Origin: an uncultured Saprospiraceae bacterium
GTDB taxonomy: Bacteria; Bacteroidota; Bacteroidia; Chitinophagales; Saprospiraceae
Length of the DNA: 24,000 bases
Direction of reading: 5' to 3'
Assembly: GCA_964589705.1 (NCBI GenBank)
Contig: CAZPUF010000006.1
Coordinates: forward strand, 1 to 24,000
Shown: in pieces, positions 4,268-24,000 of the stretch
Numbering within the stretch: position 1 is the first letter of the stretch
How the letters are laid out: every line of letters starts with the position of its first letter
Position numbers and translations under genes: made by a program
Notes under the pieces: model-generated
What the model saw: the letters and a program-made list of their open reading frames with translations, nothing else
What the model was told of the DNA's origin: nothing
Database searches by the model: none

Positions 4268-4290
4268 TGGAGTATTTCTGTGATCTAACA

Positions 4291-4319
4291 CTAATATTGC
4301 AATATTAGCTAAATATTAG
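4291..4319. promoter_or_regulatory. Candidate operator: perfect 18-bp palindrome plus an adjacent third half-site
   Basis: 'ctaatattgcaatattag' (4291-4308) is its own reverse complement. It is followed directly by 'ctaaatattag' (4309-4319), which repeats the half-site with one extra base. It sits in the divergent intergenic region between the lipoprotein gene (-) and the AhpD-like/ArsS operon (+). Confidence 0.35.
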
Positions 4320-4402
4320 ATTTGTCACCATCTAACATAGATGCTGATGACAGATGACGTTTAAGTAATTAATTCGTTTACTTTGCAGCAAATTTAGATT
4401 CA

Positions 4403-5808: not shown

Positions 5809-5884
5809 TAGCATTGCGGTCTGTAACTTCAATTTTAACCTAGATTTATATTGCATAACAAATTATTATGCTGATAGCAATCGT

Positions 5885-5892
5885 TAATTTTG
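5885..5892 (+). promoter_or_regulatory. Candidate Bacteroidota -7 promoter box (TAnnTTTG)
   Basis: 'taattttg' is a perfect TAnnTTTG. It ends 20 nt upstream of the ATG at 5913. Confidence 0.45.
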
Positions 5893-5912
5893 CAGTGCTT
5901 TAATAACAAATT

Positions 5913-6662: not shown

Positions 6663-6722
6663 ACATCCTTTTATATCGCTATCAGATGTGACTTAGAAGA
6701 TGCATTTCAGTCATATTACAGA

Positions 6723-6730
6723 TATCTTTG
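6723..6730 (+). promoter_or_regulatory. Candidate Bacteroidota -7 promoter box (TAnnTTTG)
   Basis: 'tatctttg' is a perfect TAnnTTTG. It ends 19 nt upstream of the ATG at 6750. Confidence 0.45.
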
Positions 6731-6749
6731 ATATAAAATTTCAAGTGAT

Positions 6750-7718: not shown

Positions 7719-7733
7719 GAAAACAAAGAGAAA

Positions 7734-8708: not shown

Positions 8709-8740
8709 CTCAGCAATAAATTAATAATCAAACAACAACA

Positions 8741-9520: not shown

Positions 9521-9543
9521 TAAGAATAGCGTAAAAATTAAAT

Positions 9544-9581
9544 AAAAGGCCTTCCAGTTTGTTACTTGGAGGGCCTTTTTC
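9544..9581 (+). terminator. Rho-independent terminator after the EGF-like lipoprotein gene
   Basis: 'aaaaggccttcca gtttgttact tggagggcctttttc'. The GC-containing stem is aaaaggcc/ggcctttt plus ttcca/tggag with one U-G pair. A T-run follows, and the element sits ~25 nt after the stop. Confidence 0.75.
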
Positions 9582-9615
9582 TGCTAATGAAATAATATCA
9601 CTCGGTTCATCTCTC

Positions 9616-9623
9616 TATATTTG
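9616..9623 (+). promoter_or_regulatory. Candidate Bacteroidota -7 promoter box (TAnnTTTG)
   Basis: 'tatatttg' is a perfect TAnnTTTG. It ends 15 nt upstream of the ATG at 9639. Confidence 0.45.
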
Positions 9624-9638
9624 GTTTGAATAGGTACA

Positions 9639-10787: not shown

Positions 10788-11127
10788 CCTGACGATTATT
10801 CTAATCACGATATTCGTCACTCCTTCCTTTACCCAATCTCTGTCTATAGAATCTCTCAGGTTAGATAAAATTGATTCATTATGCATAGTACCAGATTTGA
10901 AGTTAGACTATGCACTATTATCCAAGCCAAAAGCTATACTGAATATAGAATCAACAAAAAATCAATCTGTCATGGTTAAGAAATTTGATTATCTCAAGGC
11001 TTACCATGACCACTTAGGCATCTTTTGCAAAGCCGAAAATATAGCCAGCCAAAAAGCGACAGTCAACTTGAGAATGAGGTTAGGAAGTCTGGAGTACGTA
11101 GACAGGATGGAAGGAAAGATAAGGTAA
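10747..11127 (+). CDS. Hypothetical secreted protein
   Basis: The track ORF starts at 10708, inside the methyltransferase gene. I prefer the ATG at 10747, which gives 'MVAHGNRNIIKLYSLTIILITIFVTPSFTQ', a signal-like sequence. The C-terminal 'LGIFCKAENIASQKATVNLRMRLGSLEYVDRMEGK' resembles a small conserved Bacteroidota family that I recall only vaguely. The function is unknown. Confidence 0.55.
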   Translation: MVAHGNRNIIKLYSLTIILITIFVTPSFTQSLSIESLRLDKIDSLCIVPDLKLDYALLSKPKAILNIESTKNQSVMVKKFDYLKAYHDHLGIFCKAENIASQKATVNLRMRLGSLEYVDRMEGKIR

Positions 11128-11132
11128 AGCAA

Positions 11133-11858
11133 TTACAGAATATCCTTAAGGTCTGATACACCTATATACTCATGACAAGTAAATCCTTCACCATATTCCA
11201 CAGCTATTCTTCTTCCAAAATCTTGGGATCTTCCTCTTAATCCATCCAAAAAAGACTTAGACGAAATCGGTGTTTGTGGTCCTTTAGAATCCTTCTGATA
11301 AAACTGAGTTTCAAAGCATTTGACAAGTTTTATCTTCTTATCCATATACATTGAAATATCTACCACGATGTCTGGCTTGATATAATGATCCTGTATATAG
11401 TGGAGGACTTTGCGAGGACGCCATGGCGCTTGATTTGTTTTTCCTGATTTGGTTTTGATCTTAAGCAGACCAGAAAGAAAACAAGCTTCACTGACTAATT
11501 TTGCTGCATTACCATGGTCAGGATGACGATCTGTGACCGAATTAGCCAAGATTATCTCAGGCCTATACTTACGGATGGACTTTATAATTTTCAATTTATT
11601 CTCTTTGTTATTGGCGATAAAGCCATCTGCCATTCCTAGATTTTCTCTTACAGCAACCTTTGCAAATTTTCTTGCAGCTTCAGCCTCTTTCTTCCTTGTA
11701 GCAGCTGTTCCTCTTGTTCCTAATTCTCCTTTGGTCAAATCAACAATTCCAACTTTATATCCTAAGTCAATATGTTTTAGTATCGTACCACCACATCCTA
11801 ACTCCACATCATCAGGATGTACGCCTATTGCGAGAAAATCTAAATTCTTAATCTTCAT
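11133..11858 (-). CDS. bshB1: LmbE/PIG-L-family N-acetylglucosaminide deacetylase, best match to bacillithiol biosynthesis deacetylase BshB1
   Basis: 'AIGVHPDDVELGCGGTILK' is the zinc-binding (A/P)HPDD motif. 'DLTKGELGTRG...RKKEAEAAR' and 'DRHPDHGNAAKLVSEACFLSG' align closely with my recollection of B. subtilis BshB1 (YpjG). The gene lies 25 nt downstream of fabH on the same strand. Confidence 0.8.
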   Translation of the reverse strand: MKIKNLDFLAIGVHPDDVELGCGGTILKHIDLGYKVGIVDLTKGELGTRGTAATRKKEAEAARKFAKVAVRENLGMADGFIANNKENKLKIIKSIRKYRPEIILANSVTDRHPDHGNAAKLVSEACFLSGLLKIKTKSGKTNQAPWRPRKVLHYIQDHYIKPDIVVDISMYMDKKIKLVKCFETQFYQKDSKGPQTPISSKSFLDGLRGRSQDFGRRIAVEYGEGFTCHEYIGVSDLKDIL

Positions 11859-11883
11859 ATATTATAATTAAAAGGCAAGCCAT

Positions 11884-12936
11884 TTACTCCCATCTGAGTA
11901 ATGCACTACCCCAAGTAAATCCACTTCCAAATGCAGCCAAACAAACCAAATCACCTGATTTTACCATACCAGCTTCCCATGCTTCACATAAGGCAATAGG
12001 AATAGAGGCTGCGGTTGTATTGCCATATTTCTGGATGTTATTGAATACCTTATCATCAGTAAGGCTCATACTCTGCTGAACGAATTTGCTGATTCTCAAA
12101 TTAGCTTGGTGCGGAACCAACATATCTATATCTGACTTGTCCAAGCCGGTCTCATTCAGCGCTTCTTGTATAACCTCTACAAACTTAACAACTGCTTTCT
12201 TGAATACCGCTTGACCATTCATATATGGATACATCATCCCATCAGCCACCATCTTTGGTGTAGCAAATATGCCTCCTGGCACATTTGTATCAGGAAAGCC
12301 ATAATCCACCTCATCATGGACACCTCCATGACTTCCAAAATTTATCATGGCCAACTCCTCAGCAAAGCTGCCATCGGAATGTAGCTTGGTCGTCAATATA
12401 CCTTCTCCCTCTGCAGGTTGTAAGACAACCGCACCAGCTCCATCTCCAAAAATCACAGTCACATTCCGACCTTTGGTGCTAAAATCCAATCCCATACTGT
12501 GCATCTCAGCTCCAACTAACAAGATGTTCTTATACATTCCAGATCGGATAAACTGATCCGCCACTGAGAGACCATAGACAAATCCTGAACATTGATTACG
12601 TATATCCAATGCGCCGATTTCAGTATTGGTAATTCCCAATTCTCGTTGTAATAATACGCCACAACCTGGGAAATAATAATCAGGACTAAGGGTCGCAAAG
12701 ATGATGAAGTCCACATCCTCTTTGGTAATACCTGCTCTTTCTATAGCTATCTCTGCCGCTTTGGCACCCATGGTAGATGATGATTCTTTATGCTTAGTCG
12801 CATATCTCCTTTCTTCTATGCCTGTTCTCTCAATGATCCACTCGTCAGAAGTATCCATATACTTAGTTAGCTCTTGATTCTTGACGACATTGGAAGGCAA
12901 ATAACACCCTATACCTCCAATTTTGGTTCTTGCCAT
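11884..12936 (-). CDS. fabH: Beta-ketoacyl-ACP synthase III (KAS III)
   Basis: The catalytic triad contexts are 'NQCSGFVYGL' (Cys), 'VPHQANLRI' (His) and 'GNTTAASIPIAL' (Asn). The C-terminal 'GFTWGSALLRW' is typical of the family. At 350 aa it is somewhat longer than canonical FabH. Confidence 0.88.
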   Translation of the reverse strand: MARTKIGGIGCYLPSNVVKNQELTKYMDTSDEWIIERTGIEERRYATKHKESSSTMGAKAAEIAIERAGITKEDVDFIIFATLSPDYYFPGCGVLLQRELGITNTEIGALDIRNQCSGFVYGLSVADQFIRSGMYKNILLVGAEMHSMGLDFSTKGRNVTVIFGDGAGAVVLQPAEGEGILTTKLHSDGSFAEELAMINFGSHGGVHDEVDYGFPDTNVPGGIFATPKMVADGMMYPYMNGQAVFKKAVVKFVEVIQEALNETGLDKSDIDMLVPHQANLRISKFVQQSMSLTDDKVFNNIQKYGNTTAASIPIALCEAWEAGMVKSGDLVCLAAFGSGFTWGSALLRWE

Positions 12937-13054
12937 AACATTCAGTTTTCAAGCAAATTAATAGATTTTTTATTGCTGTCATTATCCAAAAGTCTATTAT
13001 TCACTAATAAATAAACTTAGAAATGTAAAGTAACCAATAGCAATGGATAATTAC

Positions 13055-13062
13055 TAGCTTTG
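13055..13062 (+). promoter_or_regulatory. Candidate Bacteroidota -7 promoter box (TAnnTTTG) for the lipid operon
   Basis: 'tagctttg' is a perfect TAnnTTTG. It ends 34 nt upstream of the TTG start at 13097, within the 160-bp divergent fabH / lipid-operon intergenic region. Confidence 0.45.
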
Positions 13063-13096
13063 CGATTAGCGAGATCACCTCACAGAATAAGACAAT

Positions 13097-13792
13097 TTGA
13101 ATCCTATAAAGAAGAAGCTACAACAGCTTATTTACATAATCCTAAATCCACTAATTCAGCTTTTGATAAAGTTGGGTGTCACTCCAAATATGGTTACCTT
13201 CTTCGGTTTCCTACTTAATATCTTGTCGACGGGTGTGCTCATATATGGAGCAGAGGTAGGAGATAGAAATAATCACAAATATCTAGGATATGCAGGTGCG
13301 ATAATACTATTTGCCGGAGCCATGGATATGATAGATGGAAGATTAGCGAGATTGAGTGGTAAGGACCATCCATATGGTGCCTTATATGACTCCGTCATAG
13401 ATAGGTACAGTGAGCTGGTTATGTTTTTTGGCTTCTGCTATTATACAGTAACTCAAGATTACTTACTGACAAGCATATTTAGTTTTATTGCTATGATAGG
13501 ATCTATTATGGTCAGTTATACAAGAGCGCGGGCAGAAGGACTAGGTGTCAATGCCAGTGTCGGTCTAATGCAGCGGCCAGAAAGAATAGTCCTTGTCGCA
13601 ACAGCCAGTCTGATAACCTGTATAGTCTCGGCTGCGATCGGCGGTGGGTATGAATATAGAGTATCATGGTTAGGTCAACCAATCTTTGAGACGATCTCAG
13701 TATTCAGCTGGTCTATCACTTTCTTGGCGTTTTCTGCCAATATCACAGCTCTAAGAAGGTTATATTTCTCCAGACAACAACTCATGGAATAG
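13097..13792 (+). CDS. CDP-alcohol phosphatidyltransferase; candidate phosphatidylinositol-phosphate synthase
   Basis: A perfect family signature DX2DGX2ARX8GX3DX3D is present in 'DMIDGRLARLSGKDHPYGALYDSVIDR'. The protein has multiple TM helices. The start is a TTG, because no in-frame ATG precedes the conserved 'TPNMVTFFGF'. The inositol-phosphate acceptor is inferred from co-operonic MIPS and PgpA. Confidence 0.85.
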   Translation: MNPIKKKLQQLIYIILNPLIQLLIKLGVTPNMVTFFGFLLNILSTGVLIYGAEVGDRNNHKYLGYAGAIILFAGAMDMIDGRLARLSGKDHPYGALYDSVIDRYSELVMFFGFCYYTVTQDYLLTSIFSFIAMIGSIMVSYTRARAEGLGVNASVGLMQRPERIVLVATASLITCIVSAAIGGGYEYRVSWLGQPIFETISVFSWSITFLAFSANITALRRLYFSRQQLME

Positions 13793-13860
13793 TTTGTTAA
13801 TCTATTTAATGGTGAGAATAACGGTGATATAGCTGAGAAAGATTTTAAATTTGAACCTAG

Positions 13861-14382
13861 ATGTTAGATAACTTTAATAAGATTAAGACCAGGAAGACCC
13901 AATATGGAGAACATGGGCTACCTGAAACTTATCCGGTTCCACGGATAGATGGTCTTCTTTTCTACATCCAAAGAAATCTAAATCAGAACACAGTAGTCTA
14001 CGTTATAAATCAATCTAAAGATGGCTTTCTAAATGAAGAGCGACCAATGGATGTCTACTGGGTTAATTACACCGAAGGCGGCATTGTTAAATCACTTAAC
14101 CAAATTCAAAACAAACTTGCTTTTGGCTATAAAAGCGAAAAAATAAACAATACAAGCTGTCGATTCCAAATGGTTTCATATGAACATCAGGAATTTTACA
14201 TTGGAAAAAACTGTGATAACAAGTATCAAGTACATACTAAGTTAAATGACCGAATGAGTGTCATATCCAACATATACGTATACGCTGAAGATTTTGGCGT
14301 ATTTCCTCAGGTTAAGTATATAGAGTTCTATGGACAGGACTTAGTGAGACAATTACCAACGTACAGTAAAGTACTCTTGTAA
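13861..14382 (+). CDS. Soluble hypothetical protein, probably DUF4833 family
   Basis: 173 aa with no signal peptide or TM segment. 'LFYIQRNLNQNTVVYVIN', 'DVYWVNY' and 'VKYIEFYGQD' fit my recollection of the Bacteroidota-restricted DUF4833 pattern. This was not verified. Confidence 0.6.
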   Translation: MLDNFNKIKTRKTQYGEHGLPETYPVPRIDGLLFYIQRNLNQNTVVYVINQSKDGFLNEERPMDVYWVNYTEGGIVKSLNQIQNKLAFGYKSEKINNTSCRFQMVSYEHQEFYIGKNCDNKYQVHTKLNDRMSVISNIYVYAEDFGVFPQVKYIEFYGQDLVRQLPTYSKVLL

Positions 14383-14392
14383 AACTTTCTTC

Positions 14393-15325
14393 ATGTCTTT
14401 TCGATTTGATTCAAGGTTCTCCAGAAATTGGATAGTATTTGGATTGGTTTTTACCACCCTATACTGGCTATGGAATGGGCTGGCAGTAGGTATAGATTCA
14501 TTGGCGATCATCTTCTACTTATCCATTATTGGTCTGATCTATGCCACTCCAAGAAGTAGAAAATTGGCCGTCGCTTTTAGTCCATTTTTCATCTACCTGA
14601 TATGCTATAATTCACTGAAAATATTGCATGATTATAATCCATTTACCATTATAAATGAGTCTCTTTATGATCTCGAAGTTGCTTGGTTTGGGGTTAATGT
14701 TGACGGTGTCAAAGTCTCCTTATGCGAATACTTCAACCATCATATTCATTGGTTTCTTGATTTAGTCTCAGGTATCTTCTATATCACTTGGGCCCCATTT
14801 CCAATCATTTTTGGTCTCATTACATTTTTTACTAAAAAACCAAAACTGACCTTTGATTTTTGGACTTGCTTTTTAATTGCCAACTTATTTGGATTTGCTA
14901 TCTATATTTTGCTTCCAGCTGCACCTCCTTGGTATTATTTGAAATATGGAGCAGAAGTGGTACTTGATGCTGGCGGAGAACCAGCTGGTTTAGCCAGGTT
15001 TGATGAAATGATAGGATTTGGGTTATATTCTGGAATGTACAGTAAGGGGACAAATACCTTTGGTGCATTACCTTCAATGCATGCTGCCTTCCCATTAATT
15101 TTGAGTTATTATAGTTTGAAATACAAGAACAAATATTTAACTACTTTATTCACTGTCAGTTTGTTATGTATATGGTTTGGTGCTATATATACTAACCATC
15201 ATTATTTAATTGATGTAATTATGGGGATTGGATGTGCTATTATTGGTATTTTACTACTTGAAACCACGGTAAATAGTAGTTTTGTGCCTTCTTGGTACAA
15301 GAAAACAAAAGAATTCATTAGCTGA
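14393..15325 (+). CDS. PAP2-superfamily integral membrane protein with sphingomyelin/IPC-synthase-like motifs; candidate inositol-phosphoceramide synthase
   Basis: About 6-8 TM helices. The C2-like motif is 'LPSMHAAFP' (PSxH). The C3-like motif 'NHHYLIDVIMG' (HxxxD) resembles the SMS/AUR1-type 'HYxxDV' block. The classical KxxxxxxRP C1 motif is not obvious to me, as is also true of SMS/IPC synthases. Confidence 0.7.
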   Translation: MSFRFDSRFSRNWIVFGLVFTTLYWLWNGLAVGIDSLAIIFYLSIIGLIYATPRSRKLAVAFSPFFIYLICYNSLKILHDYNPFTIINESLYDLEVAWFGVNVDGVKVSLCEYFNHHIHWFLDLVSGIFYITWAPFPIIFGLITFFTKKPKLTFDFWTCFLIANLFGFAIYILLPAAPPWYYLKYGAEVVLDAGGEPAGLARFDEMIGFGLYSGMYSKGTNTFGALPSMHAAFPLILSYYSLKYKNKYLTTLFTVSLLCIWFGAIYTNHHYLIDVIMGIGCAIIGILLLETTVNSSFVPSWYKKTKEFIS

Positions 15326-15340
15326 CTTAGTTTATATTTT

Positions 15341-16546
15341 ATGCCCCTAAGAAAGAAAATGGTTGCTTATACGCAGCCTCAAAAAATTCAAGAGCTAGGA
15401 ATATATCCATACTTCCGTACAATTGAATCTGAACAAGATACGGTTGTCAAAATCAATGGGAAGGATGTCTTGATGTTCGGTTCTAATAGTTATTTAGGAT
15501 TGACTAATCATCCACGACTTAAGGAAGCTTCAAAGAAAGCCATAGACAAATATGGCTCAGGTTGTGCAGGTTCTAGATTCCTAAACGGGACCTTGGATAT
15601 CCATTTAGAATTAGAAGAAAAGCTGGCTTCCTTTGTAGGAAAAGAAGAGGCCCTAGTATTTAGTACAGGGTTTCAAGTTAATCTAGGTGTTATCTCATCT
15701 ATACCAGGTAGACACGATTACATTATCACTGATGACTTAGACCACGCATGCATAATAGACGGTGCCAGATTGAGTTATGCGAGCAAGCACTGGAAGTACA
15801 AGCATAATGACATGGAAGCTCTAGAAAAGCTTCTTGCCAAGTGTGAGCCTGAGCGCATTAAGCTAATTGCTGTTGATGGTGTATTTAGCATGGAAGGTGA
15901 TCTATGTAATTTGCCAGAGATAGTCAGACTTGCGAAAAAATATAAAGCGTGTATCTTTTTGGATGATGCACATGGTCTAGGCGTAATGGGGGCTGGAGGA
16001 AGAGGTACTGCAGCACACTTTGGATTGACAGAGGATGTAGATATGATTATGGGTACATTCAGTAAATCACTAGCGTCTATAGGTGGGTTTGTTGCAGCAA
16101 ACAAAGAGACGATTAATTACCTTAAGCATAATGCAAGATCTCTCATATTTAGTGCAAGTATAGCACCTGCTAATGCTGCATCTGTTATTGCAGCACTTGA
16201 TCTTATACAAGAAGAACCCGACAGGATAGACAAGGTTTGGGAGAATACTAATTACGCTATGAAGCTTCTTAATGAAGCTGGTTTTGACACAGGTCATACA
16301 GTTACACCAATCATTCCAATTTTGATTAGAGATGATTATAAGACCTTTAGCTTAACCAGAAAATTATTAGACCAAGGTGTCTTTGTCAATCCAGTTGTAT
16401 CTCCGGCAGTACCAAGTACGTCTTCGTTACTGAGATATTCGTTGATGTCTACTCACACCAAACCCCAGATAGAAGAATCCGTAGAAAAGATTTACGCTAT
16501 CTCTAAGGAAATCGGTGTCTTTGACCAAGAAAAAACGCATGCATGA
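15341..16546 (+). CDS. spt: Alpha-oxoamine synthase, serine palmitoyltransferase-like
   Basis: 'GSNSYLGLTNHPRLKEASKKAIDKYGSGCAGSRFLNGTLDIHLELEEKLA', 'DDAHGLGVMG', and the PLP-lysine context 'GTFSKSLASIGGFVA'. The GTFSKS context matches what I recall for bacterial SPT, whereas BioF and KBL have GTLSKA/GTLGKA. The operon context also supports SPT. Confidence 0.8.
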   Translation: MPLRKKMVAYTQPQKIQELGIYPYFRTIESEQDTVVKINGKDVLMFGSNSYLGLTNHPRLKEASKKAIDKYGSGCAGSRFLNGTLDIHLELEEKLASFVGKEEALVFSTGFQVNLGVISSIPGRHDYIITDDLDHACIIDGARLSYASKHWKYKHNDMEALEKLLAKCEPERIKLIAVDGVFSMEGDLCNLPEIVRLAKKYKACIFLDDAHGLGVMGAGGRGTAAHFGLTEDVDMIMGTFSKSLASIGGFVAANKETINYLKHNARSLIFSASIAPANAASVIAALDLIQEEPDRIDKVWENTNYAMKLLNEAGFDTGHTVTPIIPILIRDDYKTFSLTRKLLDQGVFVNPVVSPAVPSTSSLLRYSLMSTHTKPQIEESVEKIYAISKEIGVFDQEKTHA

Positions 16547-17670
16547 GTCTCGAAATAAGAGAGACACAAAACAAAAAAGAACTTCATCAATTTATTGATT
16601 TCCCCCATGACCTTTATGAAGGGGACTCCTACTATGTGCCAGAGATCTTTATGGCACAAAAAGACTTACTTAATAAGAACAAACATCCTTTTCATAAGCA
16701 AGGAGAGGTCACCTGTTTTCTAGCCTTCGATAACGAGATAATTGTTGGCCGCATAGCCGCTATCAAAAACCCTGGTTATAACGCCTATCATCATTCCAAT
16801 ATTGGTTTTTTTGGTTTCTATGATTATATAGAATCAGCGCAAGTTGCCAAAGCATTATTGGACAGAGTGAAATCTCATTTAGCCAGTGAAAAATATGACA
16901 CTTTAATGGGTCCTGTCAATTTTTCCACGAATGAAACAGCCGCTACCCTAGTAGATGGATTTGATAGTTCTCCACTAATAATGATGACATATAACAAGTC
17001 CTATTATGACAGAATACAAAAAGAGATAGGACTAGAGAAAGAAATGGATTTGTATGCATACTATATGCCTACTGCATCGGTCTCTCAAAAGTCAGTAAAG
17101 ATGTATGACTTGATCCTAGAGCGACTTAAAAGAAAAGGTATCACTTTGAGAAACATTTCCATCAAAAACATCAAGGCAGAGGCTGATGGCATGCATAAGG
17201 TCTACAACAAAGCTTGGGAAAAAAATTGGGGATTTGTACCCATGTCTCGTACAGAAATGGACTTCATGATATCGGAACTCAAAATGATAGCAGATGAACG
17301 GTTCTGTTATATAGCCGAGCACAACGGTGAAGCGATTGGATTTTCCATTTCATTACCAGACATTAATGAGATTTCTAAGGGATTTAAAAAAGGCAGACTA
17401 TTCCCTTTTAATGTTTTTAAATTACTGCTCAAGAAGAAATCTGTATCCAAGGTAAGAATCATAACCATGGGAGTCATTGCTGAATATAGACGATTGGGGA
17501 TAGAAGCACTCTTCTTTGCCAGAAATATAATGACAGCTCAAGAGATTGGATTACACGGAGGAGAAGCCTCTTGGATATTAGAATCCAATGCAGAAATGAT
17601 CGCCTCAGCTGAAAAATTAAATGCCAAGAGATACAAAACGTATCGAATCTATAAGTACGACTTAAGTTAA
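16543..17670 (+). CDS. Two-domain GNAT-family acyltransferase; candidate bacterial ceramide synthase (N-acyltransferase)
   Basis: The start overlaps the spt stop within 'ATGA'. The GNAT core is 'CYIAEHNGEAIGFSISLP...RIITMGVIAEYRRLGIEALFFARNI'. The ceramide synthase role is inferred from its position between spt and the SDR gene. Confidence 0.6.
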   Translation: MSLEIRETQNKKELHQFIDFPHDLYEGDSYYVPEIFMAQKDLLNKNKHPFHKQGEVTCFLAFDNEIIVGRIAAIKNPGYNAYHHSNIGFFGFYDYIESAQVAKALLDRVKSHLASEKYDTLMGPVNFSTNETAATLVDGFDSSPLIMMTYNKSYYDRIQKEIGLEKEMDLYAYYMPTASVSQKSVKMYDLILERLKRKGITLRNISIKNIKAEADGMHKVYNKAWEKNWGFVPMSRTEMDFMISELKMIADERFCYIAEHNGEAIGFSISLPDINEISKGFKKGRLFPFNVFKLLLKKKSVSKVRIITMGVIAEYRRLGIEALFFARNIMTAQEIGLHGGEASWILESNAEMIASAEKLNAKRYKTYRIYKYDLS

Positions 17671-17674
17671 AACT

Positions 17675-18667
17675 ATGGCATCCAAAATATTAATTACTGG
17701 TGCCAACGGATTCCTAGGAAGCTGGCTGGTAGATGAAGCCATAGCCCAAAACCTCCATGTATATGCTGGGGTAAGAAAAACTTCTAACCTTCAATATCTC
17801 AAAGATCCACGAATACATTTTTTTTACTATGACTTCAGCAAAGAGGATCAGCTTAGAGAAAAACTAAGAACTGAGGCTTTTGACTACATCGTCTTGAATG
17901 CTGGATTAACTACAGCAAAGGATCGAGCTACTTATTTTAAAGTCAATGCCAGCTATGTCAGAAAAATCTGCAAAATACTGCTAGAAGAGAAAGTGATTCC
18001 CAAAAAACTGATTTTGATCAGCAGTCTCGCTTCTTATGGACCAGCCAATTATCAAGTTAAGCAAATCTTAGATAGTGACAGTACTCCTCATCCAGTGACA
18101 TGGTATGGGGAGTCTAAGTTGCAAGCAGAACAATTTATACAAGGTTTCCAGATGATACCTTATTTGATATTTAGACCTACAGCGGTTTTTGGTCCCAGAG
18201 ATACGGCAATGGTGGATGTTTTTAAAGCGGCCAAATTAGGTTTATCACCAAAAATAGGAAAAGGAGAAATGGATGCCAGTTTTATCTATGTCAAAGACAT
18301 GGCTAAACTTGTTATAGATGCTGCTACTTCTGAGGCCGAAAGAAAATCATATTTTGTCAGCGATGGAAAGGTCTACCCTATCCATGATTTCAATCAGATG
18401 GTTGGAGATATCCTTGGAAAAAAATTAACAAGGATTACAATTCCATTTTCTATCATGAAGCTAGCTGGCTTTGTAAGTGAAAATATAGGTAAGCTACGAG
18501 GTACTGTTCCTATTCTTAATCGCAATAAAGTCAAAGAATATTTTGCGAGGTCCTTTGCTGTAGATACCGATGACTTAAAAAAAGATTTTAACTTCGCACC
18601 TTCTTATACCTTAAGTGATGGATTAAAGGAGACTATCACCTGGTGTCAGCAGAATAAATTACTATAA
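17675..18667 (+). CDS. NAD(P)-dependent epimerase/dehydratase-family SDR; candidate 3-keto-sphingoid/ceramide reductase
   Basis: Rossmann motif 'ILITGANGFLGSWL' (GxxGxxG). Catalytic YxxxK in 'WYGESKLQAE'. It starts 4 nt after the GNAT stop. Confidence 0.75.
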   Translation: MASKILITGANGFLGSWLVDEAIAQNLHVYAGVRKTSNLQYLKDPRIHFFYYDFSKEDQLREKLRTEAFDYIVLNAGLTTAKDRATYFKVNASYVRKICKILLEEKVIPKKLILISSLASYGPANYQVKQILDSDSTPHPVTWYGESKLQAEQFIQGFQMIPYLIFRPTAVFGPRDTAMVDVFKAAKLGLSPKIGKGEMDASFIYVKDMAKLVIDAATSEAERKSYFVSDGKVYPIHDFNQMVGDILGKKLTRITIPFSIMKLAGFVSENIGKLRGTVPILNRNKVKEYFARSFAVDTDDLKKDFNFAPSYTLSDGLKETITWCQQNKLL

Positions 18668-18679
18668 ACAGTTAACGAA

Positions 18680-20053
18680 ATGGCAGCTAAAAGAACATCA
18701 ACTAAAAAACAGACGACCAAATCCGCAAAACGTGGAAAGAAGACCATGAAAGGATTGGCCACCAAACCAGTTGGCAAACTCGGCATATTGACGCCAGGAA
18801 TGGGTGCGGTAGCAACAACTTTTATAGCTGGTGTGATGGCAATCAATAAAGGCTTAGCAAATCCAGTAGGCTCATTGACTCAGATGGGGCGAATAAGAAT
18901 CGGAAAGAGAACAAAGAAGAAGATACCGATGATTAGTGATGTAGTCCCATTACAAGATTTGGGTAAGGTTGCATTTGGAGGATGGGATATCTTCAAAGAC
19001 AATATGTACGAAGCTGCAGTCCATGCAGATGTACTTGACAAAGCACTTCTAGATAAGCTAAAAACTCCTCTATCCAAGATTAAACCTATGAAGGCTGTCT
19101 TTGATAAGAGTTATGTAAAGAAGCTTAATGGGACCCATGTCAAGAAAGCCAAAACCAAAATGGATCTTGCAAAGGCAGTTATGGCTGATATTAGAAGATT
19201 CAAGAAGGCCAATAATTGTAATCGTCTTGTAATGGTCTGGTGTGGTTCTACCGAAATATATATAGAAGAATCTTCTGTGCATAAAACCATAGAAGCTTTC
19301 GAAAAAGGGCTAATGAAGAACAGCAAGCATATCGCACCTAGTATGATATATGCTTATGCGGCAATAAAGATGGGTATACCTTATGCAAATGGCGCACCTA
19401 ATCTTTCATGTGATGTGCCTGCCTTAGTAGACTTAGCTAAGAAGACTGGAACCCCAATTGCTGGAAAGGATTTCAAAACAGGACAAACCCTAATGAAGAC
19501 TATCTTGGCTCCAGGATTTAAAGCAAGAGCCCTAGGAATCGAAGGTTGGTTCTCTACAAACATATTAGGCAACAGGGATGGAGAAGTCTTAGATGATCCA
19601 GATAATTTTAAAACTAAAGAAGTATCTAAACTGGGTGTATTAGAGCAGATTCTCGAACCAAAATTATACCCTGAACTTTACAAAGATTTTTATCATAAGG
19701 TAAGAATCAATTACTATCCACCTAGAGGTGACAACAAAGAAGGATGGGATAATATAGATATCAAAGGATGGCTGGACTATCCTATGCAGATTAAAGTAGA
19801 TTTCCTTTGTCGTGATTCCATTCTTGCGGCGCCAATTGTCCTTGACTTAGCTATATTTTTAGATTTGGCTAAAAGATCAGGCATGTCAGGCATACAAGAG
19901 TGGTTATCCTTCTATCTCAAATCCCCTCAGGCACCTGCAGGAAGATTCCCAATTCATGACATCTTTAAGCAATTAGCAAAATTGGAAAATACACTTCGAT
20001 ATATCGGTGGTCATGATTTACTTGATTACCTAGGACAAGATTATGAAGCTTAA
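18680..20053 (+). CDS. myo-Inositol-1-phosphate (inositol-3-phosphate) synthase
   Basis: 457 aa. 'GILTPGMGAVATTFIAG' is the NAD-binding N-terminus. 'VMVWCGSTE', 'YANGAPN' and 'GKDFKTGQTLMKTILAPGFKARALGIEGWFSTNILGNRDG' are typical of MIPS. The true start may instead be the ATG at 18746 (see findings). Confidence 0.88.
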   Translation: MAAKRTSTKKQTTKSAKRGKKTMKGLATKPVGKLGILTPGMGAVATTFIAGVMAINKGLANPVGSLTQMGRIRIGKRTKKKIPMISDVVPLQDLGKVAFGGWDIFKDNMYEAAVHADVLDKALLDKLKTPLSKIKPMKAVFDKSYVKKLNGTHVKKAKTKMDLAKAVMADIRRFKKANNCNRLVMVWCGSTEIYIEESSVHKTIEAFEKGLMKNSKHIAPSMIYAYAAIKMGIPYANGAPNLSCDVPALVDLAKKTGTPIAGKDFKTGQTLMKTILAPGFKARALGIEGWFSTNILGNRDGEVLDDPDNFKTKEVSKLGVLEQILEPKLYPELYKDFYHKVRINYYPPRGDNKEGWDNIDIKGWLDYPMQIKVDFLCRDSILAAPIVLDLAIFLDLAKRSGMSGIQEWLSFYLKSPQAPAGRFPIHDIFKQLAKLENTLRYIGGHDLLDYLGQDYEA

Positions 20054-20056
20054 TAG

Positions 20057-20524
20057 ATGATTAAGTTTCACAAAGCCATAGCGACAGTTATAGGCTTAGG
20101 ATATGCGCCTATTGCACCTGGAACCTTCGGTACAATAGGCGCTGTCATTTTCCTTTACTTAGTCTATTTTTTTGGCATATCACTCTCCTCAGCTGTCCTG
20201 ATTGGCATCATAATAATCTCAGCTTTGGTTGGAATATGGAGTACAGATCAAGTTATTCCTGAATGGGGAGATGACCCTTCTAAAGTGGTAATAGATGAGT
20301 TTGTTGGTTATCTCGTCACAATGTTATTTGTTCCGATTCAACCCAAATATATACTAGTAGCATTTATACTATTTCGCTTTTTTGACATTCTTAAGCCACT
20401 TGGTATTAGATACCTTGATAAGAACATAAAGGGTGGAACAGGAGTTATGCTAGATGATGTGCTTGCAGGTATATATGCTTGTGGATGCTTGCATCTAATA
20501 ATTAGATTTGTACCATCATTCTAA
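20057..20524 (+). CDS. PgpA-family phosphatidylglycerophosphatase A; candidate phosphatidylinositol-phosphate phosphatase
   Basis: 'GLGYAPIAPGTFGT', 'VVIDEFVGY', 'FRFFDILKPLGI' and 'GGTGVMLDDVLAGIYA' are hallmark PgpA blocks. It starts 3 nt after the MIPS stop. Confidence 0.85.
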   Translation: MIKFHKAIATVIGLGYAPIAPGTFGTIGAVIFLYLVYFFGISLSSAVLIGIIIISALVGIWSTDQVIPEWGDDPSKVVIDEFVGYLVTMLFVPIQPKYILVAFILFRFFDILKPLGIRYLDKNIKGGTGVMLDDVLAGIYACGCLHLIIRFVPSF

Positions 20525-20533
20525 TCGACTGTC

Positions 20534-20932
20534 ATGACTACCTCACCTAAGGTCCCATTCTGGCAGTCCCTTATCAAATCTCAGTTGGGTTCATTTCTAG
20601 CCACTGTCTTTGATTTCAGTAGTCTTTATATCTTGACCGAGTTTGTTGGAATATACTATGTAGCCTCAGCTGGCATTGCTAGTGGCATAGGGGCGGTGGT
20701 TGGATTTCTGGTGCAGAGATATTGGGCATTCAAACGAACTGAAAAAAATTGGAAATGGCAAGCTGTGAAATATGGATTAGTCAGTCTACTTATTCTGCTG
20801 CTCAATGTGATAGGAATATATCTCTTTACTGAGATGTTGGAATTTCAATATATGATATCCAAAATTATAATTGCTTTCCTTATTGGTATCTTCGTTTCCT
20901 TTCCGCTATTCAGGTACTTCGTATATAATTAG
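20534..20932 (+). CDS. GtrA-family small membrane protein (polyprenyl-/lipid-linked sugar translocation family)
   Basis: 132 aa with four predicted TM helices. 'VGFLVQRYWAFK' matches the GtrA-type RxWxF motif after TM2. Confidence 0.75.
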   Translation: MTTSPKVPFWQSLIKSQLGSFLATVFDFSSLYILTEFVGIYYVASAGIASGIGAVVGFLVQRYWAFKRTEKNWKWQAVKYGLVSLLILLLNVIGIYLFTEMLEFQYMISKIIIAFLIGIFVSFPLFRYFVYN

Positions 20933-20938
20933 TAGAAG

Positions 20939-21952
20939 ATGGAATCTGGAAATCTAATAGGAGGAGACAAAATTAGCATTGTCATGCCAGTTAGGAATGG
21001 ATTACCATATCTAGAAGATTGCTTACAATCAATTTTATCTCAAACTTGGACTGACTGGGAATTAATCATAGTCAATGACCATAGTACAGACAACACCCTT
21101 ACTCTACTACAGGAGATATCATTAAGAGACCAACGTATCCAATGGTACAATAATGAAGAAATTGGAATTACTCCAGCGCTTATCAAGGCAAGCACTTATT
21201 GCACAGGAAATATGATTTCCAGGATGGACGCCGATGATATAATGCCTATAGATAAGTTGGAAAACCTACATCAGCTATTAAAAAATGAAGAACAGGGTAC
21301 CGTAGTAACAGGGATGGTCAAGTACTTTTCTTCAGAAAATTTGGGAGAGGGGTATCGAAAATATGAGGCATGGCTTAATAACTTATCTTCTAAGCAAATA
21401 CATTACAGCGAGATCTATAAGGAATGCTGCGTCGCTTCAGCCAACTGGTTGATGTACATGGATGACTTCGAAAGGTGTGGTGGATTCAATGTCAAAATGT
21501 ATCCTGAAGATTATAGTTTGGTTTTTGAGTGGCGGCGAATGGGCTACAAAATTTTAGCGACCAAACATATAACACATTTATGGAGGGACCACTTAATGAG
21601 AGCTTCGCGAAATGATGACAATTACAAGAACAATACATTCGCACCACTCAAAGTCAGTTACTTTCTAGACCAAGATTGGAATAAGAATAAACAATTGATC
21701 CTATGGGGCGCAGGACCTAAAGGCAAACTAATTGCCAAACAACTAGTCAAAAGAAACATCCTCTTCAGGTGGATATGTAATAACCCTAATAAAATTGGGC
21801 AAAACATTTATAACGTAGAGTTGGAAACAGTTGATATTCTAAAAGCAATACCAAGTAGTCAAGTCATTGTTGCTGTCAGTCAAAGAAAAACAAAAGAAAC
21901 TATTTTAAACACCTTGGAAAATCATAACCATCAAAGCTTCTTCTTTTGCTAA
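20939..21952 (+). CDS. Family 2 (GT-A) glycosyltransferase with a C-terminal Rossmann-like extension
   Basis: 'ISIVMPVRNGLPYLEDCLQSILSQTWTDWELIIVNDHSTDNT' is the GT2 N-terminus. 'RMDADD' is the DxD motif. Residues ~250-337 carry 'LILWGAGPKGKLIAKQL' (GxGxxG), which is not part of a standard GT2 fold. Confidence 0.8.
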   Translation: MESGNLIGGDKISIVMPVRNGLPYLEDCLQSILSQTWTDWELIIVNDHSTDNTLTLLQEISLRDQRIQWYNNEEIGITPALIKASTYCTGNMISRMDADDIMPIDKLENLHQLLKNEEQGTVVTGMVKYFSSENLGEGYRKYEAWLNNLSSKQIHYSEIYKECCVASANWLMYMDDFERCGGFNVKMYPEDYSLVFEWRRMGYKILATKHITHLWRDHLMRASRNDDNYKNNTFAPLKVSYFLDQDWNKNKQLILWGAGPKGKLIAKQLVKRNILFRWICNNPNKIGQNIYNVELETVDILKAIPSSQVIVAVSQRKTKETILNTLENHNHQSFFFC

Positions 21953-23659: not shown

Positions 23660-24000
23660 TTAATAATTAAATCTTAAAGCGATTGATGGTATAATTGGTA
23701 ACTGGTCTACCCTTTCGAATCTGATTCTATCAAAGAAGAAGATATTGTTACGGTCATAAACATTTGTTATACTAGCTACTACTTCCAAATTGGCTTTATT
23801 AGACAGATGAAACGTCTTCTGAGCAGATGCATCTAGTCTATGATAGTATGGAAGTCTCCCTCCATTTCTTGTATCTGAAAATATGATACCGATATTGTCA
23901 GGATTATCTGTTTCATAAGTTGTGGATACACCAGGTTCAAATTGATTCAGGTTATAAAAACCTCTAGTTTCTGTAAAAGGAAAGCCACTTCCCAAATTCC
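23660..24000 (-). CDS. TonB-dependent outer-membrane receptor, C-terminal fragment (N-terminus beyond the window end)
   Basis: The frame stays open to position 24000. The C-terminal beta-barrel pattern is 'YYHRLDASAQKTF...LEVVASITNVYDRNNIFF...IPSIALRFNY', with a terminal aromatic residue typical of TBDR/OMP C-termini. Confidence 0.75.
   Translation of the reverse strand, partial: NLGSGFPFTETRGFYNLNQFEPGVSTTYETDNPDNIGIIFSDTRNGGRLPYYHRLDASAQKTFHLSNKANLEVVASITNVYDRNNIFFFDRIRFERVDQLPIIPSIALRFNY

What the first reader, a model, noticed from the sequence alone, without database searches (positions are those of the whole stretch)
13055..21952. Ten-gene operon fusing inositol-phospholipid, ceramide and glycosylation modules: predicted glycosyl-inositol-phosphoceramide pathway
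Seen in sequence: ten consecutive + strand genes follow a TAnnTTTG box, and after the first 68-nt gap the intergenic distances are only -4 to +15 nt. In order they are:
1. A CDP-alcohol phosphatidyltransferase with a perfect DX2DGX2ARX8GX3DX3D signature.
2. A DUF4833-like protein.
3. A PAP2 protein with 'PSMH' and 'HHYLIDV'.
4. An SPT-like alpha-oxoamine synthase ('GTFSKS').
5. A GNAT acyltransferase.
6. An SDR (GxxGxxG, YxxxK).
7. MIPS.
8. PgpA.
9. GtrA.
10. A GT2 glycosyltransferase.
Established knowledge, from memory: in Bacteroides thetaiotaomicron a MIPS + PIP synthase + PgpA-type PIP phosphatase + PAP2 locus makes PI and inositol-phosphoceramide. In Caulobacter, ceramide is made by Spt + a GNAT-type ceramide synthase + an epimerase/dehydratase-type reductase. 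Inference: this window carries both modules in one transcription unit and appends a GtrA + GT2 pair. That predicts a further glycosylated IPC, similar to the GIPC/MIPC lipids known mainly from fungi and plants. To my knowledge a single operon encoding the whole route, headgroup glycosylation included, has not been characterised.
Basis: partly seen in the sequence, partly recalled or inferred. Interest (0 to 1): 0.85.

Follow-up and report, generated by a model that had tools for sequence, protein, structure and literature searches.

The report
Bacterial inositol-phosphoceramide operon with an unassigned glycosyltransferase

Summary
Ten tightly spaced + strand genes (13097-21952) have the stated families, and the same order recurs on independent contigs down to 45% GT2 identity.

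The inositol module (MIPS, PIP synthase, PgpA-like phosphatase, PAP2 IPC synthase, GtrA) matches Bacteroides thetaiotaomicron BT_1522-BT_1526. The SPT / tandem-GNAT / extended-SDR triad fits the bacterial Spt-bCerS-CerR route. The most likely product is phosphoinositol dihydroceramide plus phosphatidylinositol.

Two parts of the interpretation need correcting:
- GtrA is not appended. BT_1524 is a GtrA protein, and GtrA sits in 56 of 80 related genome loci.
- The GT2 belongs to a widespread, mostly stand-alone Bacteroidota family. It lies next to the cluster in 1 of those 80 loci, and 0 of 54 GT2 metagenome loci carry inositol genes. Sister Saprospiraceae operons end at GtrA. It is soluble and structurally generic.

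Glycosyl-IPC is therefore possible but poorly supported (about 0.17).

Fusion of the ceramide and inositol modules is common in environmental Bacteroidota (19 of 80 loci) and undescribed in the searchable literature, so this is a new variant of a known kind. DUF4833 and GtrA are conserved members with unknown roles.

The parts
13055..13062 (+). TAGCTTTG, a Bacteroidota -7-type box (TAnnTTTG) 35 nt upstream of the first start codon; candidate operon promoter
   Evidence: The position fits a promoter, but the motif count in the window is not above chance (33 against 26.7 expected).
13097..13792 (+). Phosphatidylinositol-phosphate synthase (CDP-alcohol phosphatidyltransferase, BT_1523-like), TTG start
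   Evidence: Pfam CDP-OH_P_transf 5e-15. NCBIfam PIPSynBT1523 scores 291 bits, best hit but below the 350 equivalog cut-off. Top PDB hits are Renibacterium PIPS 5d91/5d92 and mycobacterial PgsA1. The full DX2DGX2AR...GX3DX3D motif is present.
13861..14382 (+). DUF4833 protein: soluble, function unknown, conserved partner of PIPS and PAP2 in environmental clusters
   Evidence: Pfam DUF4833 3e-33. No TM-like segment. No PDB relative. Found between PIPS and PAP2 in 23 of 80 genome loci.
14393..15325 (+). PAP2_3 phosphoinositol-dihydroceramide (IPC) synthase, BT_1522/AUR1-like
   Evidence: Pfam PAP2_3 8e-24. NCBIfam PhinosDhcerSyn at 255 bits is the only hit and is below the 480 cut-off. Motifs PSMH and HHYLIDV are present, with invariant H230, H269, H270 and D274 in alignment A1. 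About 6 TM-like segments.
15341..16546 (+). Serine palmitoyltransferase (alternative start at 15359 used by gene callers)
   Evidence: NCBIfam NF047600 SerpalmtaseCFB scores 666.5, above its 640 cut-off, while KBL, BioF and ALAS models all fall below theirs. PDB: Sphingobacterium SPT 3a2b/8guh 502 bits, KBL/BioF 320, cysteate-C-fatty acyltransferase 254.
16543..17670 (+). Tandem-GNAT N-acyltransferase, candidate bacterial ceramide synthase (bCerS type); overlaps the SPT stop by 4 nt
   Evidence: Weak Pfam Acetyltransf_1 hit. AF2 model pLDDT 87. Foldseek top hits are tandem-GNAT amine N-acyltransferases such as 5kf1 and MshD 1ozp. Always lies between SPT and SDR in the 17 related loci that hold all three genes.
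17675..18667 (+). Extended SDR (NAD-dependent epimerase/dehydratase family), candidate ceramide reductase (CerR type)
   Evidence: Pfam Epimerase 1.5e-27, adh_short only 3e-3. GANGFLG and YGESK motifs. No signal peptide or TM segment. Conserved directly after the GNAT gene.
18680..20053 (+). myo-Inositol-phosphate synthase (BT_1526-like)
   Evidence: Pfam NAD_binding_5 2e-100 and Inos-1-P_synth 5e-33. Top PDB hit is 7nwr at 552 bits, E 9e-165; I take this entry to be the B. thetaiotaomicron MIPS from memory, since the PDB table gives no organism.
20057..20524 (+). PgpA-family phosphatase, candidate PIP-DAG phosphatase (BT_1525-like)
   Evidence: Pfam PgpA 1.4e-42. Directly after MIPS, as in Bacteroides loci. 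BT_1525 function is from PMC9246714.
20534..20932 (+). GtrA-family small membrane protein (BT_1524-like): core but functionally unassigned member of the inositol cluster
   Evidence: Pfam GtrA_DPMS_TM 5e-17. Present next to PgpA in 56 of 80 genome loci, including gut Bacteroidales. BT_1524 is a GtrA protein whose knockout had wild-type TLC lipids.
20939..21952 (+). Soluble GT2 glycosyltransferase with a C-terminal Rossmann-like domain; last gene of the operon, lineage-specific addition, substrate unknown
   Evidence: Pfam Glycos_transf_2 3e-28. AF2 pLDDT 94. Generic GT-A hits in the PDB. No TM segment. Orthologues are mostly stand-alone. Operon-linked copies form one nested clade.

Best explanation
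This is a conserved operon of a marine Saprospiraceae-like bacterium (phylum Bacteroidota). It most likely makes phosphatidylinositol and phosphoinositol dihydroceramide, the bacterial form of inositol phosphoceramide, from central metabolites.

All steps below are inferred from homology and synteny; none has been shown in this organism.
1. MIPS converts glucose-6-phosphate to inositol phosphate.
2. The CDP-alcohol transferase joins inositol phosphate to CDP-diacylglycerol, giving PIP-DAG.
3. The PgpA-like phosphatase converts PIP-DAG to PI-DAG.
4. In parallel, SPT condenses serine with acyl-CoA to give 3-ketosphinganine.
5. The tandem-GNAT enzyme N-acylates 3-ketosphinganine.
6. The extended SDR reduces the keto group, giving dihydroceramide.
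7. The PAP2 enzyme transfers phosphoinositol from PI-DAG to dihydroceramide.

GtrA and DUF4833 are conserved accessory members with unknown roles. Possible roles are lipid flipping or substrate handover.

The tenth gene, a soluble GT2, is co-transcribed. It is a lineage-specific arrival from a widespread stand-alone family. Its substrate is unknown and most likely has nothing to do with the inositol headgroup.
For: - SPT passes its NCBIfam equivalog cut-off. PIPS, PAP2 and MIPS have the B. thetaiotaomicron enzymes or models as their best matches.
- Published genetics assign BT_1522, 1523, 1525 and 1526 and show that BT_1524 is GtrA (PMC9246714).
- B. fragilis cerS and cerR knockouts support the order Spt, then CerS, then CerR (bioRxiv 10.1101/2023.05.23.541633).
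- Tight spacing, with no terminator-like sites above chance, fits one transcript.
- The identical ten-gene order appears on several independent contigs.
- Among 80 species-representative loci holding the PAP2 gene, 19 carry SPT, 17 the full SPT-GNAT-SDR triad, 56 GtrA, 23 DUF4833 and 1 the GT2.
- GT2 family members at 40-51% identity are stand-alone. None of 54 informative metagenome loci has GtrA, PgpA or MIPS nearby. Individual contexts agree.
- Sister Saprospiraceae operons end at GtrA or continue with unrelated genes.
- Operon-linked GT2s form one clade inside the stand-alone family, without long branches.
Against: - No lipid or transcript data exist for this uncultured lineage.
- PIPS and PAP2 score below the NCBIfam equivalog cut-offs.
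- I could not compare the GNAT and SDR directly with CCNA_01212/CCNA_01222 or BF9343_4218/4240, because no reference sequences were available.
- Flectobacillus major carries the cluster but showed no inositol lipid by TLC.
- The GT2 has stayed 5-6 nt from GtrA, or overlapping it by up to 14 nt, across a clade that has diverged to 45% GT2 identity. Such persistence often signals a shared function.
- I could not check whether genomes with a stand-alone GT2 also carry inositol-lipid genes elsewhere.
Confidence: 0.65

Rival explanations
1. The GT2, with GtrA, glycosylates the inositol headgroup. The operon's end product is then a hexosyl- or HexNAc-inositol-phosphoceramide, analogous to fungal MIPC or plant GIPC.
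For: - The GT2 is the last gene of the operon. It starts 6 nt after GtrA here and overlaps GtrA by 4-14 nt in relatives.
- That position is kept throughout a clade that has diverged to 45% GT2 identity.
- Catalytic-looking motifs (RMDADD, YPEDY) are invariant.
- A different GT (Glyco_tranf_2_5) lies about 1.6 kb downstream of the Dyadobacter cluster, after an intervening 462-aa ORF of unknown family.
Against: - The GT2 is next to only 1 of 80 genome loci holding the IPC-synthase gene.
- None of 54 GT2 family loci in metagenomes carries inositol genes.
- Stand-alone orthologues are as similar to the window protein (46-50%) as the operon-linked L008 and L013 copies are (51% and 45%).
- Sister Saprospiraceae operons lack it.
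- It is soluble with no TM segment and matches only generic GT-A enzymes.
- It is unrelated to the known IPC glycosyltransferases (GT32 Sur1/Csg1, GT8 IPUT1; from established knowledge).
- GtrA belongs to the core cluster even where no GT is present.
- My literature searches found no report of a glycosylated inositol-phosphoceramide in bacteria.
Confidence: 0.17
2. GtrA and the GT2 form a Gtr-like pair. They make and flip a polyprenyl-phosphate sugar used to decorate a surface glycan, and this is unrelated to inositol lipids.
For: - GtrA-family proteins are associated with surface polysaccharide synthesis (statement in PMC9246714).
- The GT2 profile shows weak N-terminal similarity to ArnC and DPMS (E about 1e-9 to 1e-10).
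Against: - The GT2 lacks the C-terminal membrane helices of GtrB/DPMS-type enzymes.
- It carries a soluble Rossmann-like domain instead.
- No GT-C (GtrC-type) gene is in the window.
- GtrA co-occurs with PgpA and PIPS across Bacteroidota without any GT2.
Confidence: 0.04
3. The ceramide-like module makes a different long-chain-base lipid, for example a sulfonolipid or capnine-type or deoxy-sphingolipid. Alternatively, the PAP2 enzyme uses another acceptor, so IPC is not the main product.
For: - A CapA-like (cysteate synthase / CBS-like) PLP enzyme lies 5 kb upstream at 7734-8708. CysteaSynCapA is its best NCBIfam hit at 471 bits.
- SPT-family enzymes can be promiscuous (PMC10191378).
Against: - The SPT passes the SPT equivalog cut-off and scores far above the cysteate-C-fatty acyltransferase (502 against 254 bits).
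- The CapA-like protein is below its cut-off (471 against 600) and is not in the operon.
- SPT, GNAT and SDR are physically linked to the IPC-synthase homologue in 17 genome loci.
Confidence: 0.06

Closest known systems
Bacteroides thetaiotaomicron inositol lipid cluster BT_1522-BT_1526 (Heaver et al. 2022, PMC9246714)
   Same: All five gene families are present and give the best database matches: MIPS, PgpA-like PIP phosphatase, GtrA, PIP synthase and PAP2 PI-DHC synthase. The predicted chemistry is the same: a PIP-DAG intermediate, then PI-DAG, then PI-DHC.
   Different: - The gene order is rearranged.
- A DUF4833 gene is inserted between PIPS and PAP2.
- The whole ceramide module (SPT, GNAT, SDR) is embedded in the same operon.
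- A GT2 lies at the 3' end.
- PIPS and PAP2 share only about 40-50% identity with Bacteroides homologues and score below the NCBIfam equivalog cut-offs.
- The host is an environmental marine Saprospiraceae-like organism, not a gut Bacteroidales.
Bacterial ceramide pathway Spt - bCerS - CerR (Caulobacter CCNA_01220/01212/01222; B. fragilis BF9343_4218/4240)
   Same: - The three enzyme types match: an alpha-oxoamine synthase SPT, a GNAT-superfamily N-acyltransferase and an epimerase/dehydratase-type reductase.
- The three genes are adjacent and translationally coupled, as is often seen outside Bacteroidota (PMC11334938).
   Different: - In sphingolipid-producing Bacteroidota studied so far, the three genes are reported not to be close together. 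Here they are adjacent and fused to the headgroup module.
- There is no AcpR or AasR gene, as expected for Bacteroidota, whose SPTs use acyl-CoA (PMC11324152).
- The reductase here has no signal peptide, whereas Caulobacter CerR is periplasmic (PMC11087976).
- Direct sequence homology to the reference bCerS and CerR could not be tested.
Fungal and plant IPC glycosylation (MIPC synthase Sur1/Csg1/Csh1, GT32; plant IPUT1, GT8; GINT1/GMT1)
   Same: Only the concept: a glycosyltransferase acting after IPC synthase would give a glycosyl-IPC.
   Different: - The window enzyme is a soluble GT2 with a Rossmann-like C-terminal domain, not a membrane-bound lumenal GT32, GT8 or GT64.
- It does not co-distribute with the IPC synthase gene.
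- No product is known.
GtrA/GtrB/GtrC O-antigen glucosylation systems
   Same: A GtrA-family protein sits next to a GT2 gene.
   Different: - The GT2 lacks GtrB's membrane helices.
- No GtrC-type GT-C gene is present.
- GtrA here tracks with PgpA and PIPS, not with the GT2.

Membership tests
BT-like inositol lipid cluster (BT_1522-1526) | MIPS homologue adjacent to the lipid genes | tested here: met
   Pfam NAD_binding_5 and Inos-1-P_synth. 552 bits to PDB 7nwr, an inositol-3-phosphate synthase.
BT-like inositol lipid cluster (BT_1522-1526) | CDP-alcohol transferase with DX2DGX2AR...GX3DX3D, PIP-synthase type | tested here: met
   The motif is present. Best NCBIfam hit is PIPSynBT1523 at 291 bits, below the 350 cut-off. 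Best PDB hits are PIP synthases.
BT-like inositol lipid cluster (BT_1522-1526) | PgpA-family phosphatase (BT_1525-like) in the cluster | tested here: met
   Pfam PgpA 1.4e-42. Same position after MIPS as in Bacteroides loci. Its substrate was not tested.
BT-like inositol lipid cluster (BT_1522-1526) | PAP2/AUR1-like PI-DHC synthase (BT_1522-like) | tested here: inconclusive
   PhinosDhcerSyn is the only NCBIfam hit, at 255 bits against a 480 cut-off. Catalytic His and Asp residues are invariant in A1. Identity to Bacteroides homologues is about 40%.
BT-like inositol lipid cluster (BT_1522-1526) | GtrA-family membrane protein (BT_1524-like) within the cluster | tested here: met
   Pfam GtrA_DPMS_TM. 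GtrA is present in 56 of 80 related loci. BT_1524 is described as GtrA.
BT-like inositol lipid cluster (BT_1522-1526) | Production of PI-DAG and PI-DHC | not testable with these tools
   Needs lipidomics. The lineage is known only from metagenomes.
Bacterial ceramide pathway (Spt-bCerS-CerR) | SPT clade membership rather than KBL, BioF or HemA | tested here: met
   NF047600 scores 666.5, above its 640 cut-off, and all KBL, BioF and ALAS models fall below theirs. The PDB ranking agrees.
Bacterial ceramide pathway (Spt-bCerS-CerR) | GNAT-type acyltransferase homologous to CCNA_01212 / BF9343_4218 | tested here: inconclusive
   The fold is a tandem GNAT of amine N-acyltransferases. The position between SPT and SDR is conserved in 17 loci. 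No reference sequence was available, and no NCBIfam model hit.
Bacterial ceramide pathway (Spt-bCerS-CerR) | Epimerase/dehydratase-type reductase homologous to CCNA_01222 / BF9343_4240 | tested here: inconclusive
   It is an extended SDR of the Epimerase family, not the classical SDR type of BT_0972. Synteny is conserved. There was no direct comparison with a reference.
Bacterial ceramide pathway (Spt-bCerS-CerR) | Periplasmic location of CerR, as in Caulobacter | tested here: not met
   The N-terminus starts directly with the Rossmann motif, and there is no hydrophobic segment. The Caulobacter localisation is from PMC11087976.
Glycosyl-IPC (MIPC/GIPC-type) pathway | Glycosyltransferase that co-distributes with IPC synthase | tested here: not met
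   The GT2 lies next to the PAP2 gene in 1 of 80 genome loci. None of 54 GT2 loci has GtrA, PgpA or MIPS nearby.
Glycosyl-IPC (MIPC/GIPC-type) pathway | Homology to known IPC glycosyltransferases (GT32 Sur1/Csg1, GT8 IPUT1) | tested here: not met
   Pfam Glycos_transf_2 only. PDB neighbours are GalT1/CgT, RmlT, heparosan and chondroitin synthases, TarS/TarP and SpsA.
Glycosyl-IPC (MIPC/GIPC-type) pathway | Glycosylated inositol sphingolipid product | not testable with these tools
   Needs LC-MS/MS.
Gtr (GtrA/GtrB/GtrC) system | GtrB-type GT2 with C-terminal TM helices, plus a GT-C partner | tested here: not met
   The GT2 has no TM-like segment. No GT-C family is found in the window or its flanks.

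The most novel reading that the evidence does not exclude
In this Saprospiraceae subclade, a stand-alone housekeeping GT2 was captured at the end of the IPC operon. It now glycosylates PI-DHC (or PI) on the cytoplasmic face, and GtrA flips the product. The result would be the first bacterial glycosyl-inositol-phosphoceramide, encoded with its whole pathway in one transferable ten-gene operon.
Probability: 0.17. Interest if true: 0.75.

Novelty: new variant of a known kind. Interest (0 to 1): 0.45.

Why it matters
- **Compact pathway.** The operon joins the ceramide and inositol-headgroup modules. In gut Bacteroides these are scattered, with parts identified only recently. Here they form one compact unit, which gives strong genomic support for the whole Spt, bCerS, CerR, IPC-synthase route in Bacteroidota. 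It also offers a ready nine- or ten-gene cassette for heterologous reconstitution.
- **Wider distribution.** Inositol sphingolipid capacity appears widespread in environmental Bacteroidota: Saprospiraceae, Chitinophagaceae, Cyclobacteriaceae, Spirosomaceae and Sphingobacteriaceae. The published survey concentrated on host-associated genera.
- **Candidates for unknown steps.** Conserved members of unknown function (DUF4833, GtrA, and DUF5686/BT_1527-like proteins in relatives) may act in lipid flipping, substrate handover or export.
- **If the GT2 acts on the headgroup.** That would extend GIPC/MIPC-type lipids to bacteria. Present evidence makes this unlikely.

Tried and rejected
1. **GPI-like route.** I asked whether the divergent PIG-L gene (11133-11858, -) could be a GlcNAc-PI deacetylase working with the GT2. 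I rejected this: it is BshB1 (TIGR04001 at 289 bits, above its 182 cut-off).
2. **Direct test of the GNAT and SDR against reference bCerS and CerR.**
   - The Stankeviciute 2022 paper is not held.
   - No reference sequences were available.
   - Only PDB Foldseek could be run.
3. **Function of the GT2 family from its context.**
   - Stand-alone loci show only lineage-specific synteny, such as a BatA-like protein downstream in 29 loci.
   - The contexts of the PPTase-GT2 fusions were uninformative.
   - PDB sequence and fold hits cover only the generic nucleotide-sugar half.
4. **Promoter and terminator scans.** Neither was enriched over shuffles, so they neither support nor contradict a single transcript.
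5. **Literature.** Searches for a described fused cluster, for DUF4833 or for bacterial glycosyl-IPC found nothing relevant.
6. **Cluster-member names.** These gave no taxonomy. The taxon was inferred from the best genome hits, which are Saprospiraceae MAGs.

Full report
**Observation**

The window holds ten consecutive + strand ORFs from 13097 to 21952. The gaps between them are 68, 10, 15, -4, 4, 12, 3, 9 and 6 nt. The third gap is 33 nt if SPT starts at 15359, as gene callers chose on the source contig.

All the quoted sequence motifs are present.

A TAGCTTTG box lies at 13055-13062, 35 nt before the TTG start. TAnnTTTG occurs 33 times in the window against 26.7 expected, so only its position is meaningful. 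Sigma-70-type promoter and intrinsic-terminator scans show nothing above shuffled controls inside the block. That is compatible with one transcript but does not prove it.

**Source and conservation**

The window matches an ENA metagenome scaffold exactly (L001). The closest genomes are Saprospiraceae MAGs (lineage).

The same ten-gene order, with the same flanking genes, recurs on independent contigs. The flanks are BshB1 and FabH, divergent upstream, and NA37, convergent downstream. GT2 identity on these contigs is 72%, 64%, 51%, 48% and 45% (L005/6, L007, L008/9, L174, L013). The arrangement is therefore real and inherited, not a chance juxtaposition.

**Inositol module**

- MIPS scores 552 bits to PDB 7nwr, which I take from memory to be the B. 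thetaiotaomicron enzyme.
- The CDP-alcohol transferase has PIPSynBT1523 as its best NCBIfam match (291 bits, below the 350 cut-off). Its best PDB matches are PIP synthases, and it carries the complete catalytic motif.
- PhinosDhcerSyn is the only NCBIfam match for the PAP2 protein (255 bits, below the 480 cut-off), and the catalytic His and Asp residues are invariant in alignment A1.

Heaver et al. showed genetically that:
- BT_1526 is MIPS;
- BT_1523 is the PIP synthase;
- BT_1525 (PgpA-like) is the PIP phosphatase;
- BT_1522 is the PI-DHC synthase;
- BT_1524, in the middle of that cluster, is a GtrA-family protein whose deletion left TLC lipids unchanged (PMC9246714).

GtrA in the window is therefore the counterpart of BT_1524, not part of an appended glycosylation pair. 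In my survey, GtrA lies beside PgpA in 56 of 80 related genome loci, including gut Bacteroides, Parabacteroides and Dysgonomonas.

**Ceramide module**

The alpha-oxoamine synthase passes the NCBIfam SPT equivalog for the CFB group (666.5 against a 640 cut-off). It fails the KBL, BioF and ALAS models. In the PDB it scores:
- 502 bits to Sphingobacterium SPT;
- 320 bits to KBL/BioF;
- 254 bits to cysteate-C-fatty acyltransferase.

The next gene overlaps the SPT stop by 4 nt. It folds confidently (pLDDT 87) as a tandem GNAT, and its nearest solved relatives N-acylate amines, for example glucosamine N-acetyltransferase and MshD.

The third gene is an extended SDR of the epimerase/dehydratase family. 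This is the CerR type, not the classical SDR type of the B. thetaiotaomicron KDSR BT_0972.

I could not compare the GNAT and SDR directly with the reference bCerS and CerR sequences, so membership is inferred from fold and from synteny. SPT, GNAT and SDR stay together, in that order, in 17 of the 80 loci, even where the GNAT has diverged to 24-28% identity.

B. fragilis knockouts support the order Spt, then CerS, then CerR in Bacteroidota. One difference from Caulobacter is that the reductase here has no signal peptide, whereas Caulobacter CerR is periplasmic.

**How common is the fusion?**

A scan of one genome per GTDB species with a PAP2 profile found at least 587 confirmed loci, and I examined the best 80. 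Re-annotating these with the window proteins gave three patterns:
- Gut Bacteroidales carry the five-gene order MIPS-PgpA-GtrA-PIPS-PAP2.
- Nineteen loci carry SPT within 10 kb, and 17 of these hold the whole triad.
- Only one locus carries the GT2.

The 19 SPT-carrying loci come from:
- Saprospiraceae;
- Cyclobacteriaceae;
- Dyadobacter koreensis DSM 19938;
- Flavipsychrobacter;
- Segetibacter;
- Pedobacter;
- a Flavobacteriales MAG;
- a Bacteroidales MAG;
- an unclassified Bacteroidota MAG.

Accessory content varies among the 80 loci:
- DUF4833 lies between PIPS and PAP2 in 23 loci.
- A DUF5686 / CarboxypepD_reg protein (the BT_1527 type) occurs in 28 loci.
- A fatty-acid hydroxylase occurs in 11 loci.

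The literature states that Spt, bCerS and CerR are not close together in the sphingolipid-producing Bacteroidota studied so far (PMC11334938). The inositol-cluster survey concentrated on host-associated genera. I found no paper describing the fused cluster or DUF4833.

**The GT2**

This gene carries the whole glycosyl-IPC prediction.

*Structure.* It is a soluble protein with no hydrophobic segment. The model is confident (pLDDT 94): a GT-A domain followed by a Rossmann-like C-terminal domain of about 90 residues, with an invariant WGAGxKGK motif. PDB neighbours are generic GT2 enzymes that act on polymers or soluble acceptors, at 22% identity or less. NCBIfam gives no hit above cut-off.

*Distribution.* Full-length family members at 46-50% identity sit in unrelated contexts in other Bacteroidota, including an Ascidiimonas genome and a Vicingaceae contig. 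A metagenome scan returned 80 further loci, and none of the 54 with more than 1.5 kb of upstream sequence has GtrA, PgpA or MIPS nearby. The stand-alone copies are as similar to the window protein as the operon-linked copies in L008 (51%) and L013 (45%).

*Phylogeny.* In a neighbour-joining tree, the eight copies taken as operon-linked form one clade nested inside the stand-alone family, without unusual branch lengths.

*Sister lineages.* Sister Saprospiraceae operons share the other nine genes but not the GT2:
- L015's operon ends at GtrA.
- L014's continues with a YitT protein.
- L020's is followed by a histidine kinase.

The simplest reading is a single relocation of a conserved gene of unknown function to the 3' end of the operon in one subclade. 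Its tight coupling to GtrA (a 5-6 nt gap or a 4-14 nt overlap) keeps a functional link possible. I rate glycosyl-IPC at about 0.17.

**A lead that failed**

The upstream PIG-L-family gene could have suggested a GPI-like GlcNAc-PI deacetylase. It is BshB1, the bacillithiol deacetylase, which passes its equivalog cut-off.

**Verdict**

The pathway assignment for nine of the ten genes is well supported by homology, synteny and published genetics of the homologues. The predicted product is PI-DAG and PI-DHC.

The claim of a headgroup-glycosylation module is not supported: GtrA is a core member, and the GT2 is probably a passenger or has an unrelated role.

The fused operon is a new variant of a known kind. 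Its value lies in being a compact pathway cassette, in extending inositol sphingolipid capacity to environmental Bacteroidota, and in pointing to DUF4833 and GtrA as conserved unknowns.

**Limits**

- There are no lipid or transcript data.

Noticed in passing
window 11133-11858 (-) and 11884-12936 (-): BshB1 (bacillithiol deacetylase, PIG-L family, passes TIGR04001) and a FabH-type KAS III are transcribed divergently from the operon. This pairing is conserved with the operon in L005-L014. The PIG-L domain could be misread as a GPI-type GlcNAc-PI deacetylase.
   Followed up: yes
window 4403-4738 (+) and 4738-5808 (+): An arsenosugar biosynthesis pair. The peroxidase-like protein scores 171.6 on TIGR04169 (cut-off 120). 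The radical SAM ArsS scores 427.9 on TIGR04167 (cut-off 300). The two genes abut: the ArsS start codon begins on the last base of the upstream stop.
   Followed up: partly
window 7734-8708 (+): A PLP enzyme whose best NCBIfam hit is cysteate synthase CapA (471 bits, below the 600 cut-off), ahead of cystathionine beta-synthase. If it makes cysteate, the organism might also make capnine or sulfonolipids through an SPT-like route.
   Followed up: partly
window 8741-9520 (+): A 259-aa protein with teneurin- and laminin-type EGF repeats (EGF_Teneurin 1.4e-14). This domain type is unusual in a bacterium.
   Followed up: no
window 13846-13853 (+): A second TAnnTTTG box (TAAATTTG) lies inside the only sizeable intergenic gap (68 nt), 8 nt before the DUF4833 start. 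It could be an internal promoter or a chance match.
   Followed up: no
window 23660-24000 (-), continued in L001 17118-19475: A 785-aa CarboxypepD_reg + Plug outer-membrane protein lies 1.7 kb downstream and is conserved with the operon in the ten-gene clade. In 28 other PAP2 loci, a different CarboxypepD_reg + DUF5686 protein (BT_1527 type) sits next to the inositol genes, in many environmental clusters between GtrA and PIPS. These are possible lipid-export partners.
   Followed up: partly
L063 9277-9912 and ten other loci (L020, L027, L050, L056, L062, L064, L080, L084, L087, L088): In Chitinophagaceae- and Cytophagales-type clusters, a fatty-acid hydroxylase gene is inserted immediately upstream of PAP2, after DUF4833 where that gene is present. 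This suggests hydroxylated sphingolipid species. It is absent from the window.
   Followed up: partly
L063 (Dyadobacter koreensis DSM 19938) 1002-13326: A cultured strain with a fused cluster: SPT-GNAT-SDR-PgpA-GtrA-DUF5686-PIPS-DUF4833-hydroxylase-PAP2. No MIPS is in the locus. An unknown 462-aa ORF and a Glyco_tranf_2_5 glycosyltransferase follow. It is a practical organism for lipidomics.
   Followed up: partly
P0064, P0092 (L176-L178): Some members of the GT2 family are fused to an N-terminal 4'-phosphopantetheinyl transferase domain (547-558 aa). The C-terminal domain of the window GT2 gives a weak CoA_binding hit (E 0.004). No functional context emerged.
   Followed up: partly
window 18680-18745 (+): MIPS begins with a lysine- and arginine-rich tail of about 22 residues (MAAKRTSTKKQTTKSAKRGKKT) before a second Met. 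The alignment to PDB 7nwr starts at residue 27. The tail could be a membrane-association segment or an over-extended start call.
   Followed up: no
L025 (MAG labelled Desulfobacterales) 4435-8018: A MIPS-PgpA-PIPS-PAP2 cluster appears on a contig binned outside Bacteroidota. This could reflect horizontal transfer or misbinning.
   Followed up: no
window 1632-2186 (+), 2533-3732 (-): An ECF sigma factor and a FemAB-like protein lie at the left end of the window. They appear unrelated to the operon.
   Followed up: no
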